A DNA stretch of 64,000 nucleotides from an uncultured Candidatus Saccharibacteria bacterium (GTDB lineage: Bacteria; Patescibacteriota; Saccharimonadia; Saccharimonadales; CAZNVG01). The position numbers were made by a program, and so were the translations under genes. How positions within the stretch are numbered: position 1 is the stretch's first letter; every line of letters begins with the position of its first letter. The notes below the pieces were generated by a model, which worked only from the letters and a program-made list of their open reading frames with translations, did not search any database and was not told the origin of the DNA. The DNA lies in contig CAZNVG010000002.1 of assembly GCA_964576475.1 (NCBI GenBank), forward strand, positions 7,859 through 71,858, given 5' to 3'. Shown here in pieces: positions 2,184 through 64,000 of the stretch.

Positions 2184-2196
2184 ATGGACGGAGTTG
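2184..2196. repeat. Left arm of a 13-bp perfect inverted repeat (ATGGACGGAGTTG) flanking the Zn-ribbon gene pair
   Basis: Exact reverse complement of 3128..3140 (CAACTCCGTCCAT). It also forms a local hairpin aactcc-atggac-ggagtt. Confidence 0.6.
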
Positions 2197-2226
2197 CACA
2201 TGAACATGAAAGGCAAGGTGGTCTCC

Positions 2227-2646
2227 ATGGCTCTCATTCGAGCCAATTGCTCACTCTGCGGTCCGGTCAACGTCGACACACGACAGGCCGAACTGCGCAT
2301 CTGTGATGACACGAATGAAGCCACGCTTGGCTTCTCGTGCGGCTGCAGCGTGTATGTGCTGATCAGTCTCACCGAAGCGCTCGTCGAGGTGTTCCGCTGC
2401 CTGTCCATCACCGAGATTCACTGGCGTCTGCCCGAGATCTCGACGGACGAGCACGCACCGAAGCATGCAACCGTCCTGGCGACGTGCCACAACTGTGGTC
2501 AGATCCAGGTCAGCGCGTGCGAAGTGATGGTCATCGACGACAAGCACTGCATCATCCCCTGCGTGACGTGCGGCGGCTCGTTCAACGTGACGGTGACGTC
2601 ACAGAATCGAACGCAGCTGCTCCAGCACGGCGCGATGGCGGCGTAG
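2227..2646 (+). CDS. GC-rich Cys-rich (Zn-ribbon-like) hypothetical protein, paralog 1
   Basis: MALIRANCSLCG... start preceded by caaggtggtc RBS. The N-terminus is homologous to the next gene (MALIRA-CS-CG...RIC). A second CxxC...CxxC unit (CHNCG...CVTCGG) lies in the C-terminal half. GC-rich codons. Confidence 0.6.
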   Translation: MALIRANCSLCGPVNVDTRQAELRICDDTNEATLGFSCGCSVYVLISLTEALVEVFRCLSITEIHWRLPEISTDEHAPKHATVLATCHNCGQIQVSACEVMVIDDKHCIIPCVTCGGSFNVTVTSQNRTQLLQHGAMAA

Positions 2647-2687
2647 CAAGTTCTCACCCCAACAGCAAAAGAAAGCAGGTGGTCAGT

Positions 2688-3017
2688 ATGGCGCTCATCC
2701 GAGCGACGTGCAGCGAGTGCGGAGATGTGGAACTCAGGTCGCGAGACCTGCAGGTGCGCATCTGTGGAGACAGCGGTGACGGAACGTACTTGTTCCGCTG
2801 TCCGGTGTGTCGCATGACGGAAGTCAAGAATGCCGATGACCAGGTCGTCGACATCCTTGCAGCTGCCGGAGTGCGATGCGTCGAGTGGCGACTGCCCAGC
2901 GAGTTGCGCGAGCGACCCGGTGGCGATGTCATCACCCACGACGACGTGATCGACTTCCATGAGATCCTCGAGCGAACCGACTGGTTCGCCACGGTGGAGT
3001 CCATGGTCAAGCGGTAG
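2688..3017 (+). CDS. GC-rich Zn-ribbon hypothetical protein, paralog 2
   Basis: MALIRATCSECG...FRCPVCRM forms a CxxC...CxxC ribbon. RBS gcaggtggtc lies upstream. It is the last 110 codons of track ORF 2337..3017, whose upstream part is an out-of-frame overlap with paralog 1. Confidence 0.65.
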   Translation: MALIRATCSECGDVELRSRDLQVRICGDSGDGTYLFRCPVCRMTEVKNADDQVVDILAAAGVRCVEWRLPSELRERPGGDVITHDDVIDFHEILERTDWFATVESMVKR

Positions 3018-3028
3018 TCGTACTGCGC

Positions 3029-3114
3029 TAAGGGTGCCGGTCGGGTGGTATGTTTGTCGCGAGCTTTGGCTCACAACACACTACTCATTCGACCGGCACT
3101 CTGCCGCACCCTTA
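3029..3114 (+). terminator. Long GC-rich imperfect hairpin after the Zn-ribbon pair (no T-tail)
   Basis: taagggtgccggtcg ... cgaccggcac(tctgcc)gcaccctta. About 15 bp of pairing with one bulge and a loop of about 46 nt. Confidence 0.4.
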
Positions 3115-3127
3115 CCTTTCTGCTTCA

Positions 3128-3140
3128 CAACTCCGTCCAT
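3128..3140. repeat. Right arm of the 13-bp inverted repeat (CAACTCCGTCCAT)
   Basis: Exact reverse complement of 2184..2196. Confidence 0.6.
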
Positions 3141-3217
3141 ATACAACTTTATTACTGAATCTACAGATACATTATAAAAATTCAAAGAGGTCTTAGTGTA
3201 GAAAAGTAACTTTTTGC

Positions 3218-3257
3218 TTGACACTTAGTGTACAAAGTACAATAATGAATTCATACG
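3218..3257 (+). promoter_or_regulatory. Sigma70-like promoter with overlapping palindromic candidate operator upstream of the PP2C-kinase operon
   Basis: TTGACA (3218-3223), 17-nt spacer, AATAAT (3241-3246). The perfect 10-bp palindrome ATGAATTCAT (3245-3254) overlaps the -10. It lies in an AT-rich spacer within the GC-rich island. Confidence 0.4.
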
Positions 3258-61489: not shown

Positions 61490-62608
61490 ATGCCTGCAAC
61501 GAGCAAGTCAGGCACAGCGCCAATGATCCTGGCAAATACCGAGCACGCCGTGCTCAACATCCCGGGGTGGCACTGGGCAGTCTTGCTCAGTTGGTTCATC
61601 GCCCTCATCACCATCGACGTCGCGGTTCTCCACAAGAAGGACCACGAGGCGTCGATCCGCAGTGCGACCATCCAGACCATGATGTGGATCTCATTGGGCA
61701 TCGCCCTCGGATTCGTCATGTGGGGTGTCTACGGCGCAGACGCTGGTGCGGAGTACTTCTCGGGATTCGTCATCGAGAAGAGCTTGAGCATCGACAACGT
61801 CTTCGTCTGGAGCATCCTGCTGACGTTCTTCGCCATCCCGGCGAAGTACCAGCATCGGGTGCTGTTCTGGGGCATCTTCGGAGCCTTGATCTTCCGTGCG
61901 ATCTTCATCTTCGCGGGTGTTGCTCTCATCGAGAAGTTCGAGTGGACCCTCCTTCTGCTCGGTTTGTTCCTTCTCTACACCGGCTTCAAGGTCGGCGTGG
62001 GTGAGGACGACGAGTTCGATCCGGATTCCTCGCGAGTGATCGCGATGATTCGTCGGGTCATCCCGGTCAGCAACTCGCTGGACGGCCACAAGCTGTTCAC
62101 GAAGGACGCCAACGGGAAGCGTGTCGCAACGATGCTCTTCATCGCCTTGATGGCGATCGAGTTCACCGATGTGCTGTTCGCAGTCGACTCCGTCCCGGCC
62201 ATCTTGGCTGTGGCGCGAGATCCGATGATCATCTTCGCATCCAATGCGGCGGCGATCCTCGGTCTGCGTGCGTTGTACTTCGTGTTCGACGCGCTGAAGG
62301 ACAAGTTCCACCTGCTCAACAAGGCCCTCGGTGTCATCCTCGCCCTCGTCGGTGTCAAGATGATCATCGGTCCCGAAGAGCTGTTCGGCATGAAGTGGCT
62401 CGGCATCCACGTCAACACCACCCTCAGCCTCATCGTCATCCTCGGCATTCTCTCCATCGGCATCGGTGCCTCGCTCGCCATCGAGCAGCCCATCGAAGAG
62501 CTGGAGGAACTCGAGGAGTTGGAGATCGAGGCGGACCTCAAGCAGCGGCACACGCCGGCCCCTCAGGGAGCTGTCGTCGACCCGTCGGCGCAGAACACCA
62601 ACACGTAG
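61490..62608 (+). CDS. terC: TerC-family integral membrane protein
   Basis: Start MPATSK with RBS aaggaaagga. EKSLSIDNVFVW and FAVDSVPAIL TerC repeat motifs. Acidic EELEELEELE tail. GC-rich. Confidence 0.85.
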   Translation: MPATSKSGTAPMILANTEHAVLNIPGWHWAVLLSWFIALITIDVAVLHKKDHEASIRSATIQTMMWISLGIALGFVMWGVYGADAGAEYFSGFVIEKSLSIDNVFVWSILLTFFAIPAKYQHRVLFWGIFGALIFRAIFIFAGVALIEKFEWTLLLLGLFLLYTGFKVGVGEDDEFDPDSSRVIAMIRRVIPVSNSLDGHKLFTKDANGKRVATMLFIALMAIEFTDVLFAVDSVPAILAVARDPMIIFASNAAAILGLRALYFVFDALKDKFHLLNKALGVILALVGVKMIIGPEELFGMKWLGIHVNTTLSLIVILGILSIGIGASLAIEQPIEELEELEELEIEADLKQRHTPAPQGAVVDPSAQNTNT

Positions 62609-62645
62609 CCCGTAAGAAGGCAAACCTGTTGATTCTGCTGTAGCA

Positions 62646-62693
62646 GTGGGGGCGGTTCATCCGTAATTTTATCGGCTCTTGAGCCGCCCCCAC
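62646..62693 (+). terminator. GC-rich hairpin after terC
   Basis: gtgggggcgg ... ccgcccccac: 10-bp perfect stem, 28-nt loop. Confidence 0.45.
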
Positions 62694-62753
62694 CGACGCA
62701 CTCCTTCCCGCTACAATCACACTGTCATACATACTTTATAATAATTCGTTAAT

Positions 62754-62776
62754 CGCTCACTCGGAGCGTTTTTTTA
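62754..62776 (+). terminator. Rho-independent terminator (plus strand) in the AT-rich spacer after terC
   Basis: cgctc-actcg-gagcg followed by ttttttt. Confidence 0.55.
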
Positions 62777-62779
62777 TTG

Positions 62780-62851
62780 TCTATAAAAGAGAAAAGGGGC
62801 CCGTCATCGTGAGTGCGCTGTTGCGCAACTGTATCACGATGACGGAACCCC
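62780..62851 (-). terminator. Rho-independent terminator of pspA
   Basis: Minus strand: ggggttccgtcatcgtga ... tcacgatgacgggcccc stem (about 16 bp) followed by ttttctctttta. Confidence 0.6.
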
Positions 62852-62902
62852 TGTTCCCCGAATGTTCTTGTAGAGACTCGCCCTACCAGATCAGAGCAGT
62901 GC

Positions 62903-63769
62903 TCAGGTCTGGGGGGTGTACGACTTGGCGCCGTTGGAAGGTGCCGTCGCCGGAACGGTGGTGCCGTCGCTCTGCAGCGCCGCCGCGTCAGCCAGAAGGC
63001 TGCTCGCATCGGTGGCCGTGGAGGCCGCCTCGACCTCCTTGGTGGGAGACGAGAGACCCATCTGCGAGCGGATCTGCTCGAGACGAGCCGAAGCCTCGGT
63101 GTTCAGGCTGGCCTGCTCGACTTCGAGCATGCGAGCCTCGACCGACTGACCCTGGAGCTCCGCGGCACCCATGGCCTTGGCCTGACGTGCCTCGATCTTG
63201 GTGCGGACCTCGTCGAACGTGGGAACGTCCTGGCCGACCGTCTCGGTGAGCATGCTCATGGCCTTGTTCATCTGCTCCTGCATCTTGGCCTGGTCGAGCT
63301 GACCGAGCAGCTTCTGCTTCTCGCTCAGCTTCTTCTGCAGCGCCGCGCTGTTCTGCTGCACGGCCGCCTTGGCCTGGTCCGATGCCTCGGCCGACTGCAA
63401 CGCCAGCTTCTTGAGGTTCTCGACCTCAGCCTCGAGGGCGATGAGCCGGTTGGCGAACGCCTCGGCCGCGCTGGTGTACTCGGTGGCCTTGGCGGTGTCG
63501 CCGCTCTTGGTCGCCTCGTCGATCATCACCACCGCCTGCCGGGCGTTGGCGCCGACCTTCTCGAGCTCCTCCATCTTGCGGTTGAGCTGCATCTCGGTGG
63601 TCTTCTGGTTGGCGATGACGTTGGCGGCCTGCTCCTTGAGCCTGCGGTGCTGGTCCTGAGCCTCGGTGATGGCCTGCTCGAGCTGGACCTTGGGGTCGGC
63701 CATGTCGTTGAACGACATGTTGAGCTTGGCGCCGAGGTACTTCCAGAACCTCATGAATGCCTTGAACAT
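62903..63769 (-). CDS. pspA: PspA/IM30-family protein (actinobacterial 35-kDa-antigen type)
   Basis: Start MFKAFMRFWKYL with RBS aggaag. DPKVQLEQAITEAQ, KATEY..AAEAFA, LDQAKMQEQ and MLEVEQ blocks resemble mycobacterial PspA as I recall it. GC-rich. Confidence 0.85.
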   Translation of the reverse strand: MFKAFMRFWKYLGAKLNMSFNDMADPKVQLEQAITEAQDQHRRLKEQAANVIANQKTTEMQLNRKMEELEKVGANARQAVVMIDEATKSGDTAKATEYTSAAEAFANRLIALEAEVENLKKLALQSAEASDQAKAAVQQNSAALQKKLSEKQKLLGQLDQAKMQEQMNKAMSMLTETVGQDVPTFDEVRTKIEARQAKAMGAAELQGQSVEARMLEVEQASLNTEASARLEQIRSQMGLSSPTKEVEAASTATDASSLLADAAALQSDGTTVPATAPSNGAKSYTPQT

Positions 63770-64000
63770 GATTGCGCACTTCCTTTTTTGTCGGGCCCCT
63801 ACGAATTCGGGGATGTGAATGAACGAGTCCATTGTGGACTTGTGTCCTTATCAGACTAGACTACTATAGACAAATAGTCAATATGATTGTTTGAGTTACT
63901 TTATTGTCTACGCTTTATTCTCATAAAGCACACACAGCAAAGTAGTGTTTGGGCGGATCTGGTTGTTCTTTTTTGGGTAAAAGAAAGGCATGATCCGCCC

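What the first reader, a model, noticed from the sequence alone, without database searches (positions are those of the whole stretch)
2184..63800. Gene-scale compositional mosaic: four or more GC-rich islands with coherent stress/defence cargo, each under AT-rich promoter DNA
By eye the backbone is about 40% GC, while 2.2-8.3 kb, 19.95-20.85 kb, 54.25-55.3 kb and 61.35-63.8 kb are about 60% GC with G/C-dominated third codon positions. Transitions occur within a few nucleotides of the RBS or after 3' hairpins. The spacers inside and beside the islands revert to AT-rich sequence with sigma70-like boxes: TTGACA-17-AATAAT at 3218, TGGCATAAT before the SDR, TTGACT-17-TATCAT at 61314. The cargo (TerY-P-like triad, SDR, Gly-zipper membrane peptides, TerC, PspA resembling the mycobacterial 35-kDa antigen) looks actinobacterial. 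If the backbone is a Saccharibacteria-like epibiont, its usual hosts are Actinobacteria. That would mean repeated, recent host-to-epibiont capture of envelope-stress and defence genes placed under native promoters. No integrase or transposase is present to explain the mobility.
Basis: partly seen in the sequence, partly recalled or inferred. Interest (0 to 1): 0.75.

Follow-up and report, generated by a model that had tools for sequence, protein, structure and literature searches.

The report
GC-rich foreign genes in Saccharibacteria chromosome
A stretch of a tiny parasitic bacterium's (Saccharibacteria) chromosome carries several gene-sized GC-rich inserts of foreign origin, but only one (the stress protein PspA) can be traced to actinobacteria, so this is a further example of a known kind of gene borrowing, not proof of repeated capture from the host.

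Summary
The mosaic is real. The backbone is 46% GC (not 40%), with gene GC3 of 0.42±0.04. Nine genes in the window have GC3 of 0.77-0.92, which is 10-14 SD above the backbone. PP2C and the kinase are only mildly raised (0.55). Three independent public assemblies carry the same junctions at 99.3-99.8% identity, so this is not a chimera.

The backbone is Saccharibacteria (AtpD 87-92% identical). PspA came from Acidimicrobiia. It is 82% aa and 80-82.5% nt identical to Microthrixaceae-type genes that sit in a MurJ-PspA-ProB-Obg context, and all 80 best species-level hits are Actinomycetota.

The other cargo does not fit "actinobacterial host":
- The nearest SDR relatives (44-55%) lie in a Saccharibacteria-like contig and in an unclassified low-GC contig.
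- PP2C-kinase-amidase-vWA is a conserved four-gene cassette also found in two jumbo-phage-sized viral contigs. In the window it is a compositional chimera.
- TerC is only 50-56% identical to Actinomycetota-type genes.

Island 4 continues past the window (TerF-like vWA, TerD). With the adjacent backbone-composition PRTase/HAD genes it forms a Ter stress system.

No integrase, tRNA or flanking repeats were found at the islands.

Verdict: multi-source horizontal acquisition, a new member of a known kind.

The parts
2200..2646 (+). ZnA: a 148-aa small CxxC (zinc-ribbon-like) protein with an internal duplication. GC-rich (GC3 0.81).
   Evidence: It is a paralogue of ZnB (36% identity, E 4e-14). No match in Pfam, NCBIfam, PADLOC, the phage collection or the plasmid collection.
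2688..3017 (+). ZnB: a 109-aa paralogue of ZnA with GC3 0.77. It is followed by a GC-rich 3' hairpin at 3031-3102.
3218..3246 (+). Sigma70-like promoter TTGACA-17-AATAAT, inside an AT-rich spacer (3131-3382, GC 0.377) upstream of PP2C.
   Evidence: (11 of 12 matches, the best site in 1900-8500).
3383..4222 (+). PP2C-family phosphatase, the first gene of the four-gene cassette. GC3 is 0.56, only mildly above the backbone.
   Evidence: Pfam PP2C_2, E 1e-09. Composition. It is 31% and 29% identical to the first cassette gene in L112 and L113.
4200..6098 (+). Protein-kinase-like enzyme with a C-terminal Cys-rich region, the second cassette gene. GC3 is 0.54.
   Evidence: Pfam Pkinase gives 17.3 bits, below the cutoff of 31.7. 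The NCBIfam match is to the kinase region of LanL, E 6e-11. The G-loop GSGGEAD, the GDFNDLN motif and the DADS motif are invariant against L112 and L113. Identity to those is 46% and 39%.
6125..7165 (+). Nicotinamidase-related / isochorismatase-like amidase, the third cassette gene. GC3 is 0.80.
   Evidence: Weak Pfam Isochorismatase match. Relatives are named 'nicotinamidase-related amidase' or 'isochorismatase'. The best representatives are 54% identical. Identity to L112 is 54%. GC3 jumps at its start codon.
7311..8120 (+). Putative vWA protein with a MIDAS motif, the fourth cassette gene. GC3 is 0.80.
   Evidence: D60-x-S62-G63-S64, T135 and D171 are invariant in the three-sequence alignment A1. 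It is 45% and 36% identical to the L112 and L113 genes. There is no HMM or PDB support, and the single-sequence AF2 model was unusable.
19909..19937 (+). Promoter-like TTGATT-17-CATAAT with an extended -10 TG (TGGCATAAT), in a 31%-GC spacer.
19985..20725 (+). Short-chain dehydrogenase/reductase (FabG-like). It is a single-gene GC-rich island (GC 0.61, GC3 0.77). Its 3' hairpin lies at 20781-20833.
   Evidence: Pfam adh_short_C2, E 4e-51. Composition. Hairpin. Nearest homologues are 55%, 51% and 44% identical.
54251..54700 (.). GC-rich stretch (0.55) with no clear coding frame. It may encode small membrane peptides or be a remnant. A perfect 12-bp hairpin lies at 54649-54715.
54836..55216 (+). 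Small Gly-zipper-type membrane protein with GC3 0.80. The true start may be the ATG near 54931.
   Evidence: There are no family hits. It is absent between Grx and atpB in sister loci L084-L086.
58066..61260 (-). Two PRTase_3 (ComF-like) phosphoribosyltransferases and a HAD phosphatase. This is the signal-biosynthesis module of a Ter system, but it has backbone composition (GC3 0.39-0.45).
   Evidence: Pfam results. Composition. The Ter parts list is from PMC7824862. The module is absent next to CobA in L084-L086.
61314..61342 (+). Promoter-like TTGACT-17-TATCAT with TG, in a 34%-GC spacer upstream of TerC.
61490..62608 (+). TerC/Alx-family membrane protein. The ORF opens at 61424, but the likely start is ATG 61490, just downstream of AAGGAAAGGA. 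GC3 is 0.82. There is no riboswitch.
   Evidence: Pfam TerC, E 1e-47. TIGR03718, E 3.5e-105. Start site. Rfam is negative. The best metagenome relatives are 50-56% identical.
62754..62768 (+). Canonical hairpin-plus-T-run terminator in a short AT-rich stretch. It separates the GC-rich 3' hairpins of TerC and PspA.
62903..63769 (-). PspA/IM30. The true start is M22 of the 309-aa ORF. GC 0.65, GC3 0.92.
   Evidence: Pfam PspA_IM30, E 3e-30. Start site. It is 82% aa and 80-82.5% nt identical to Microthrixaceae-type genes.
63883..63910 (-). Weak promoter-like site TAGACA-16-AATCAT upstream of PspA.
   Evidence: 9 of 12 matches.

Best explanation
The window is chromosomal DNA of a Saccharibacterium (46% GC). 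It has taken up several short pieces of foreign GC-rich DNA, each one or two genes long, at no fewer than five separate intergenic sites.

The pieces come from more than one source and probably more than one time. Composition falls into three tiers:
- GC3 0.89-0.96: PspA, plus the TerF-like vWA and TerD just beyond the window.
- GC3 0.77-0.82: TerC, the SDR, the amidase, the cassette vWA, ZnA, ZnB and p54836.
- GC3 about 0.55: PP2C and the kinase.

PspA came from an Acidimicrobiia (Microthrixaceae-like) actinobacterium, where it is a resident chromosomal gene. The donors of the rest are unresolved, and for the SDR and the PP2C-kinase-amidase-vWA cassette they are not demonstrably actinobacterial.

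Functionally, the inserts add to two stress/conflict modules:
- A Ter system: two PRTases, HAD, TerC, TerF-like vWA and TerD, with PspA alongside.
- A TerY-P-like phosphorylation cassette.
Both modules are compositional chimeras of backbone-like and GC-rich genes.

Inferred, not shown:
- The DNA entered without site-specific recombination, for example by uptake of free DNA and illegitimate recombination into AT-rich spacers, which are the only dispensable DNA in a compact genome.
- Only inserts lying downstream of resident promoter-like AT-rich DNA were kept.
- Deletion trimmed them to 5'UTR-CDS-hairpin units.
For: - Composition.
- Same junctions in independent assemblies. Logan DRR685533 matches window 1-12105 at 99.8% without gaps. 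ENA ERZ27258462 and Logan SRR30303740 match 52903-64000 and 61113-64000 at 99.3% without gaps.
- SNP density between strains is not higher in the islands than in the backbone.
- Backbone identity: AtpD is 87-92% identical to proteins that NCBI names Candidatus Saccharibacteria.
- Sister Saccharibacteria loci have Grx next to atpB and no PRTase/HAD/TerC/PspA after CobA.
- L087 has CysS next to AI-2E with no island 1.
- PspA: 7335 homologues, with the named top hits being Acidimicrobiales, Microthrixaceae or Actinomycetia. The best 80 GTDB-species loci are all Actinomycetota with 56-74% GC. The closest genes lie in a conserved MurJ-PspA-ProB-Obg context on 66-70% GC contigs.
- Multi-source origin: SDR, amidase, cassette synteny in L112 and L113 where it is compositionally native, TerC.
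- Ter system parts: with the parts list in PMC7824862.
- No integrase or transposase domains, no flanking direct repeats, and the only tRNA is at 15033, away from any island.
- Promoter-like boxes.
Against: - Only PspA has a well-resolved donor, and even that is 18-20% diverged. No donor within 80% identity is known for any other insert.
- Compositional tiers may reflect donors of different GC rather than different ages.
- Two functional modules are compositional chimeras in canonical gene order. Independent random insertions do not easily explain this. It may require replacement of parts of pre-existing modules by xenologues, for which I have no direct evidence.
- DNA-uptake genes are not in the window, so the proposed entry route is untested.
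Confidence: 0.72

Rival explanations
1. One reading: all islands are recent captures from the epibiont's actinobacterial host, each placed under a native promoter.
For: - PspA is 82% identical to Microthrixaceae and all 80 best species hits are Actinomycetota.
- TerC's nearest metagenome relatives fall in clusters named Actinomycetota and sit on 68-72% GC contigs.
- Codon usage of the GC-rich genes fits an Actinomycetota model slightly better than a 59%-GC Saccharibacteria-like model.
- Known Saccharibacteria hosts are Actinomycetota, and host-to-Saccharimonadia transfer has been reported (bioRxiv 10.64898/2026.09.16.751625; PMC12592800).
Against: - The SDR's nearest relatives (55% and 44%) are in a Saccharibacteria-like contig and an unclassified low-GC contig. 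Actinobacterial SDRs are no closer than 35-40%.
- The amidase's best named relative is Thermodesulfobacteriota.
- The four-gene cassette is native in low-GC, jumbo-phage-sized contigs.
- TerC identity is only 50-56%.
- No other island gene lies near PspA in 80 actinobacterial loci.
- Nothing identifies the donor as the host.
Confidence: 0.15
2. For islands 1 and 2, the donors are mobile elements, jumbo phages or GC-rich Saccharibacteria rather than cellular hosts. The cassette and the SDR circulate within the CPR and phage gene pool. The GC-rich halves were swapped in from a GC-rich carrier of the same module.
For: - Cassette synteny, at 29-54% identity, in two IMG/VR contigs of 221 and 318 kb.
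- The GC3 step falls exactly at a gene boundary inside the conserved gene order.
- The SDR is compositionally native in the 59%-GC syntenic contig L087 and forms a GC-rich islet in a second low-GC contig, L088.
Against: - Identities are low (29-55%), so none of these contigs is the donor.
- The IMG/VR contigs may be misclassified cellular DNA.
- Scans of viral contigs with TerD, PRTase, the kinase and the vWA found nothing.
Confidence: 0.3
3. The mosaic is an assembly or binning chimera that joins Saccharibacteria and actinobacterial reads.
For: Sharp, gene-scale GC switches are what a chimeric assembly could produce.
Against: - Three other assemblies, from different samples and assemblers, contain the same junctions without gaps at 99.3-99.8% identity, with strain SNPs running through both the islands and the backbone.
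- The exact proteins are also recorded on NCBI contigs of 88-89 kb.
- The AT-rich spacers between GC-rich genes would require many alternating chimeric joins.
Confidence: 0.02
4. The GC-rich genes are native. They are kept GC-rich by selection (expression or codon adaptation) or by biased gene conversion.
For: None directly. The SDR's nearest relatives are in a Saccharibacteria-like contig and an unclassified low-GC contig.
Against: - Highly expressed backbone genes (the ATP synthase genes) have GC3 of 0.39-0.45.
- The island genes are absent at the syntenic sites that could be examined in other Saccharibacteria (islands 1, 3 and 4).
- PspA nests among Acidimicrobiia genes at 82% identity.
Confidence: 0.03

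Closest known systems
Horizontal transfer from Actinomycetota into Saccharimonadia epibionts. Examples: Ca. Lutisaccharimonas and Ca. Phosphoribacter in activated sludge (bioRxiv 10.64898/2026.09.16.751625), and gene acquisitions in mammalian Saccharibacteria (PMC7427843, PMC8764695).
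   Same: - The recipient is a Saccharibacterium and the donor of at least one gene (PspA) is Actinomycetota.
- The sister contigs come from ENA and Logan metagenome assemblies. The closest PspA genes (L114, L115) are from the same ENA accession series, ERZ272xxxxx.
- Transfer serves as a trace of contact between lineages.
   Different: - The reported Lutisaccharimonas case is above 99% nt identity and has recombinase genes in the region. Here the best donor match is 80-82.5% nt and no recombinase is present.
- The donor clade is Acidimicrobiia rather than the Actinomycetes classes known as hosts.
- Most inserts cannot be assigned to Actinomycetota.
Ter (tellurite-resistance-type) stress/conflict system as defined by Anantharaman, Iyer and Aravind, summarised in Iyer et al. 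2021 (PMC7824862, section 3.4.10).
   Same: PRTase and HAD signal-biosynthesis genes, TerD, TerC and a TerF-type vWA are clustered within about 9 kb.
   Different: - No TerB, TelA, TerA, TerZ or ATP-grasp gene was seen in the stretch examined.
- PspA sits where a sub-membrane component would be expected.
- The cluster is a compositional chimera: the PRTase and HAD genes have GC3 0.39-0.45, while TerC, PspA, the vWA and TerD have GC3 0.82-0.96.
- The host is a CPR bacterium.
TerY-P triad (vWA plus PP2C phosphatase plus Ser/Thr kinase; a candidate anti-phage system).
   Same: PP2C, a kinase-like protein and a MIDAS-bearing vWA-like protein lie in one co-oriented gene string.
   Different: - A nicotinamidase-related amidase is inserted between the kinase and the vWA, making a four-gene cassette that is conserved in L112 and L113.
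- No PADLOC TerY-P model matched any of the proteins; the kinase hit only PD-T4-6 and MkoA models weakly.
- The vWA is not recognised by Pfam.
Actinobacterial PspA (the family of the mycobacterial 35-kDa antigen, Rv2744c; that name is from my own knowledge).
   Same: PspA_IM30 domain across the full length, 82% identical to Microthrixaceae PspA.
   Different: - It is detached from its donor context (MurJ upstream, ProB-Obg downstream).
- No partner genes of a Psp or Clg operon were recognised beside it.
- It carries its own low-complexity C-terminal tail.

Membership tests
Horizontally acquired genomic island | Composition or codon usage deviates from the host genome. | tested here: met
   GC3 is 0.77-0.92 against 0.422 +/- 0.036 for the backbone, giving z of 9.7-13.8. 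The codon-model log-likelihoods favour GC-rich donors. PP2C and the kinase deviate only by z of about 3.5.
Horizontally acquired genomic island | Absent from the syntenic site in related genomes. | tested here: met
   Islands 3 and 4 are absent in L084, L085 and L086. Island 1 is absent between CysS and AI-2E in L087. Island 2 (the SDR) could not be tested. The relatives are distant (AtpD 91%, other proteins 31-90%).
Horizontally acquired genomic island | Gene phylogeny is incongruent with the organism (nearest relatives in another phylum). | tested here: inconclusive
   Met for PspA. Weakly met for TerC. Not met for the SDR, whose nearest relatives are in a Saccharibacteria-like contig and an unclassified low-GC contig. 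The amidase has mixed best hits.
Horizontally acquired genomic island | Mobility hallmarks: integrase or transposase, a flanking tRNA, direct repeats. | tested here: not met
   No such Pfam domains in about 65 ORFs. The single tRNA-Gln at 15033 is not next to any island. No flanking direct repeats were found.
Ter system | TerD-domain protein. | tested here: met
   L002 7996-8664 (-) matches PF02342 at E 2.9e-35. It lies about 1.2-1.8 kb beyond the window end.
Ter system | TerC membrane protein. | tested here: met
   PF03741 at E 1.2e-47 and TIGR03718 at E 3.5e-105.
Ter system | PRTase plus HAD nucleotide-signal biosynthesis genes. | tested here: met
   PRTase_3 at E 3e-69 and 2e-33, and HAD_2 at E 2e-11.
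Ter system | TerF-type vWA, TelA or TerB components. | tested here: inconclusive
   A vWA-TerF-like protein is present (PF10138, E 1e-29). No TelA or TerB was recognised among the neighbouring ORFs scanned. Only about 10 kb beyond the window was seen.
TerY-P triad | PP2C phosphatase. | tested here: met
   PF13672 at E 1e-09.
TerY-P triad | Ser/Thr protein kinase. | tested here: inconclusive
   Pkinase scores 17.3 bits, below the cutoff of 31.7. The LanL kinase region matches at E 6e-11. The G-loop and catalytic-type motifs are conserved.
TerY-P triad | TerY-type vWA protein. | tested here: inconclusive
   The MIDAS residues are invariant in three homologues, but no vWA HMM, PDB or profile match was obtained and the structure model failed.
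TerY-P triad | Match to the curated defence-system models (PADLOC). | tested here: not met
   No TerY-P model hit. The kinase gave only weak PD-T4-6 and MkoA hits.
Riboswitch-controlled Alx/TerC (yybP-ykoY) | yybP-ykoY Mn2+ riboswitch in the 5' leader. | tested here: not met
   No Rfam hit at the gathering threshold across the window, and none at E <= 5 in 61150-61650.
Psp envelope-stress system | PspA together with cognate partner or regulator genes. | tested here: inconclusive
   PspA is present. The neighbours are TerC and the TerF-like vWA. No PspB, PspC, PspF, LiaI or ClgR-type gene was recognised.

The most novel reading that the evidence does not exclude
Each GC-rich piece runs from a short 5' leader, through the coding sequence, to its own GC-rich terminator hairpin. 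None brings a donor promoter or fragments of neighbouring donor genes. Inside two conserved modules, the compositional switch falls exactly at gene boundaries.

The most novel reading not excluded is that this epibiont acquires host genes as transcript-sized units. That would be RNA-derived, through reverse transcription, or some other promoter-less, gene-precise route. On the same reading it lives on Acidimicrobiia (Microthrix-like) hosts, a host class not yet described for Saccharibacteria.
Probability: 0.06. Interest if true: 0.85.

Novelty: new member of a known kind. Interest (0 to 1): 0.42.

Why it matters
Saccharibacteria cannot be grown without a host, and for most environmental lineages the host is unknown. 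Unameliorated foreign genes are one of the few genomic clues to who they touch. Here one gene points to Acidimicrobiia of the Microthrixaceae type, which is not among the host groups reported so far.

The case also carries a caution. Composition alone would have assigned all the islands to 'the actinobacterial host'. Homology shows at least three different kinds of source.

The biological point of interest is that a reduced-genome epibiont appears to be building or repairing two envelope-stress/conflict modules from parts with different histories. These are a Ter system with PspA, and a PP2C-kinase-amidase-vWA cassette. Public gene calls also miss TerC altogether, because the gene finders pick the wrong strand in the GC-rich DNA.

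Tried and rejected
- Plasmid tblastn as a proxy for taxonomy, for TerC, the SDR, TerD and the TerF-like vWA. Identities were only 28-45% with mixed phyla, so this was uninformative.
- Phage and plasmid searches with ZnB found nothing.
- PADLOC gave no system assignment.
- PDB sequence searches with the vWA, kinase, amidase and alignment A1 found nothing usable.
- The single-sequence AlphaFold model of the vWA had pLDDT 35 and was discarded.
- hhalign of the cassette vWA against the TerF-like vWA gave no signal, because the profiles are too shallow.
- Viral-contig scans with the vWA, kinase, TerD and PRTase found no relatives.
- A search for TerC, TerD, vWA or other island genes near PspA in 80 actinobacterial loci found none. 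The island 4 genes were therefore not taken as one block from a PspA neighbourhood.
- A search for homology beyond the PspA coding sequence, to map the transferred segment, found none at this divergence.
- A riboswitch upstream of TerC was sought and not found.
- Flanking direct repeats or att sites were sought and not found.
- I rejected differential amelioration of a single acquired block. GC3 is close to neutral, yet it differs by 0.4 between adjacent genes, and the intergenic spacers are already at backbone AT-richness while GC3 remains 0.8-0.9.

Full report
**Observation**

The window is 47.8% GC overall. Outside the four stated intervals it is 46.0% GC. Its 900-nt windows average 0.461 +/- 0.019 and never exceed 0.509. 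The stated intervals are 0.558, 0.587, 0.541 and 0.596 GC.

At gene level, 51 backbone genes have GC3 of 0.422 +/- 0.036. Eight island genes have GC3 of 0.77-0.92, which is z = 9.7-13.8:
- ZnA (2200-2646)
- ZnB (2688-3017)
- the amidase (6125-7165)
- the putative vWA (7311-8120)
- the SDR (19985-20725)
- the small membrane protein (54836-55216)
- TerC (61490-62608)
- PspA (62903-63769)

So the mosaic is real and far beyond chance. The backbone is 46% rather than 40%. The first 'island' is itself a mosaic. PP2C and the kinase (3383-6098) have GC3 of only 0.54-0.56. GC3 steps from 0.48 to 0.78 exactly at the 26-nt gap between the kinase and the amidase.

Spacers beside the inserts are as AT-rich as, or more AT-rich than, ordinary backbone spacers (0.31-0.38 against 0.41). 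GC-rich hairpins follow ZnB, the SDR and PspA.

**Not an artefact**

A Logan assembly of DRR685533 matches window 1-12105 at 99.8% without a gap. A 351-kb ENA contig (ERZ27258462) and a Logan contig (SRR30303740) match 52903-64000 and 61113-64000 at 99.3% without a gap.

Strain differences run through islands and backbone alike and are not denser in the islands. The inserts were therefore already present in the common ancestor of these strains.

**What the backbone is**

AtpD is 87-92% identical to many proteins, and those that carry an NCBI name are 'Candidatus Saccharibacteria bacterium'. The rest of the window is ordinary small-genome housekeeping: CysS, LDH, SodC, CarAB, QueA, Dus, an AddA-like helicase and the F-ATPase genes.

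More distant Saccharibacteria loci found through AtpD (L084, L085, L086) have glutaredoxin directly beside atpB. They have nothing resembling PRTase, HAD, TerC or PspA after CobA, and no GC-rich stretch. A 650-kb, 59%-GC contig (L087) shares the CobA-Grx and CysS-AI-2E neighbourhoods with the window. In it, CysS and AI-2E are adjacent with no island 1 between them.

**Where the inserts come from**

PspA is the clear case. Its top homologues are 75-82% identical. Where named, they are Acidimicrobiales, Microthrixaceae or Actinomycetia. In a scan of one genome per species, the best 80 loci were all Actinomycetota, mostly Acidimicrobiia, led by a Microthrixaceae MAG at 82%. These loci are 56-74% GC.

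The closest PspA genes are 80-82.5% identical at the nucleotide level over 717 ungapped bases. They sit in a conserved MurJ-PspA-ProB-Obg neighbourhood on 66-70% GC contigs. PspA is therefore resident there, and the direction of transfer is into the Saccharibacterium. The window copy has GC3 of 0.92, no lower than in the donors (0.86-0.94). There is thus no visible amelioration, although the true donor has not been sampled.

The other inserts do not follow this pattern.

- **SDR.** The nearest relatives in 5.8 billion proteins are 55%, 51% and 44% identical. Everything else is 37-40% and from mixed phyla. The 55% hit is compositionally native in the Saccharibacteria-like contig L087. The 44% hit is again a 0.60-GC islet in a 0.457-GC contig.
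- **Amidase.** It belongs to a family of about 2000 representatives, the best at 54%. The only organism name among the top ten clusters is Thermodesulfobacteriota, at 51%.
- **The cassette.** A viral-contig scan with the amidase showed that PP2C, kinase, amidase and vWA form a conserved four-gene cassette. It occurs in the same order in two IMG/VR contigs of 318 kb and 221 kb. Identities are 31/46/54/45% and 29/39/42/36%. There the cassette has the composition of its surroundings and lies beside NAD synthase, an AAA ATPase and an NMNAT-like gene.
- **TerC.** The best relatives in JGI metagenomes are 50-56% identical, on contigs of 59-72% GC. One of these clusters carries Actinomycetota and Actinomycetes names. 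TerC therefore has an actinobacterial affinity, but no close donor.
- **ZnA and ZnB.** They are paralogues of each other with no relatives found.

**Island 4 is part of a Ter system**

The sister contig L002 shows that the GC-rich DNA continues about 2.6 kb past the window end. That stretch holds a TerF-like vWA gene (PF10138, E 1e-29; GC3 0.89) and a TerD gene (PF02342, E 3e-35; GC3 0.96).

On the other side of TerC lie a HAD phosphatase and two PRTase_3 genes. Together these match the parts list of the Ter stress/conflict system: PRTase and HAD for signal synthesis, TerD as sensor, TerC in the membrane and a TerF vWA beneath it (PMC7824862). PspA is an added membrane-stress component.

The PRTase and HAD genes have backbone composition (GC3 0.39-0.45). 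So this module, like the cassette, is a compositional chimera.

TerC and PspA are convergent. Each has its own GC-rich hairpin, and the two are separated by about 85 nt of AT-rich DNA containing a canonical terminator. This suggests they arrived as separate pieces.

TerC is of the Alx type (TIGR03718) but has no yybP-ykoY riboswitch. Public gene calls place ORFs on the wrong strand here, so this TerC is missing from the protein collection.

**Mechanism**

Shown:
- Gene-sized GC-rich pieces lie at several intergenic sites.
- They have AT-rich, promoter-like DNA upstream and their own hairpins downstream.
- There are no integrase or transposase domains, no tRNA next to an island and no flanking repeats (and the Pfam calls).

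Inferred:
- Entry was by uptake of free DNA and illegitimate recombination into spacers.
- Inserts that happened to be transcribed from resident AT-rich DNA were retained.
- Non-functional flanks were lost by deletion.

Differential amelioration of one block cannot explain the pattern. Spacers are already at backbone composition while GC3 remains 0.8-0.9, and adjacent genes differ by 0.3-0.4 in GC3.

Both chimeric modules keep their canonical gene order. This hints that GC-rich xenologues replaced or completed parts of pre-existing modules. That idea is untested.

**Comparison with what is known**

Transfer from Actinomycetota into Saccharimonadia is already documented. It has been used as evidence for host association in activated sludge, where a case with above 99% identity and adjacent recombinases was reported. 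Gene acquisition by mammalian Saccharibacteria is also known.

The present case is a further example with different details:
- An Acidimicrobiia-type donor. No paper in the library links Saccharibacteria with Microthrix as a host.
- Older or unsampled donors.
- No mobility genes.
- Stress/conflict cargo that is only partly actinobacterial.

**Verdict**

HGT into a Saccharibacterium is supported, and an actinobacterial origin is supported for PspA. A coherent host-derived cargo is not.
- Novelty: a new member of a known kind.
- Interest is moderate.

Noticed in passing
window 47764-50457 (- strand): The F-ATPase operon carries three extra ORFs with no Pfam match. Two lie between atpA and atpG (49774-50457, 227 aa; 49248-49802, 184 aa). 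One lies between atpG and atpD (47764-48237, 157 aa). In sister loci L084-L086, atpA, atpG and atpD are contiguous.
   Followed up: partly
window 24908-29190 (- strand): Carbamoyl-phosphate synthase large and small subunits (CarB, CarA) are present with backbone composition. This is a de novo pyrimidine step that is unusual for reduced Saccharibacteria. It recalls the expanded nucleotide metabolism described for Ca. Lutisaccharimonas.
   Followed up: no
L002 11282-12142; window 61424-62608: Public gene calls on the sister contig put ORFs on the strand opposite to TerC. The TerC protein is therefore absent from the protein collection. GC-rich inserts in low-GC genomes are likely to be mis-annotated in a systematic way.
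   Followed up: partly
L087 (JGI 3300053671, 650-kb contig): A 59%-GC contig shares the CysS-AI-2E and CobA-Grx neighbourhoods with the window, so it is Saccharibacteria-like. It also encodes a Pup ligase, G6PD and a Crp regulator. This may be an unusually GC-rich Saccharibacterium and a possible source of GC-rich genes for low-GC relatives.
   Followed up: partly
L088 2997-3707 (ENA ERZ25038127): A second, unrelated low-GC contig (0.457) carries an SDR that is 44% identical to the window's. It is again a single-gene islet of 0.60 GC. The same family has therefore landed as a GC-rich singleton more than once.
   Followed up: partly
L112 2066-11389 (IMG/VR UViG_3300028840_008185): In the 318-kb viral-classified contig, the PP2C-kinase-amidase-vWA cassette is flanked by NAD synthase, an AAA ATPase and an NMNAT-like cytidylyltransferase. 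This hints that the cassette is tied to NAD metabolism or NAD-based conflict.
   Followed up: no
L111 10001-11335 (protein P0023): An actinobacterial-type contig (71% GC) encodes a 444-aa PspA with an internal tandem duplication of almost the whole domain.
   Followed up: no
window 54251-54700: This is a GC-rich stretch (0.55) with no coding-frame signal in any frame and a perfect 12-bp hairpin at 54649-54715. It may be the decayed remnant of an earlier insert, or it may encode very small membrane peptides (64 and 46 aa ORFs).
   Followed up: partly
window 2200-2646: ZnA contains two copies of the CxxC module found once in ZnB, so it has an internal duplication. The MALIRA-x-CS-x-CG N-terminus is shared by both proteins. 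No homologue was found in any searchable collection.
   Followed up: partly
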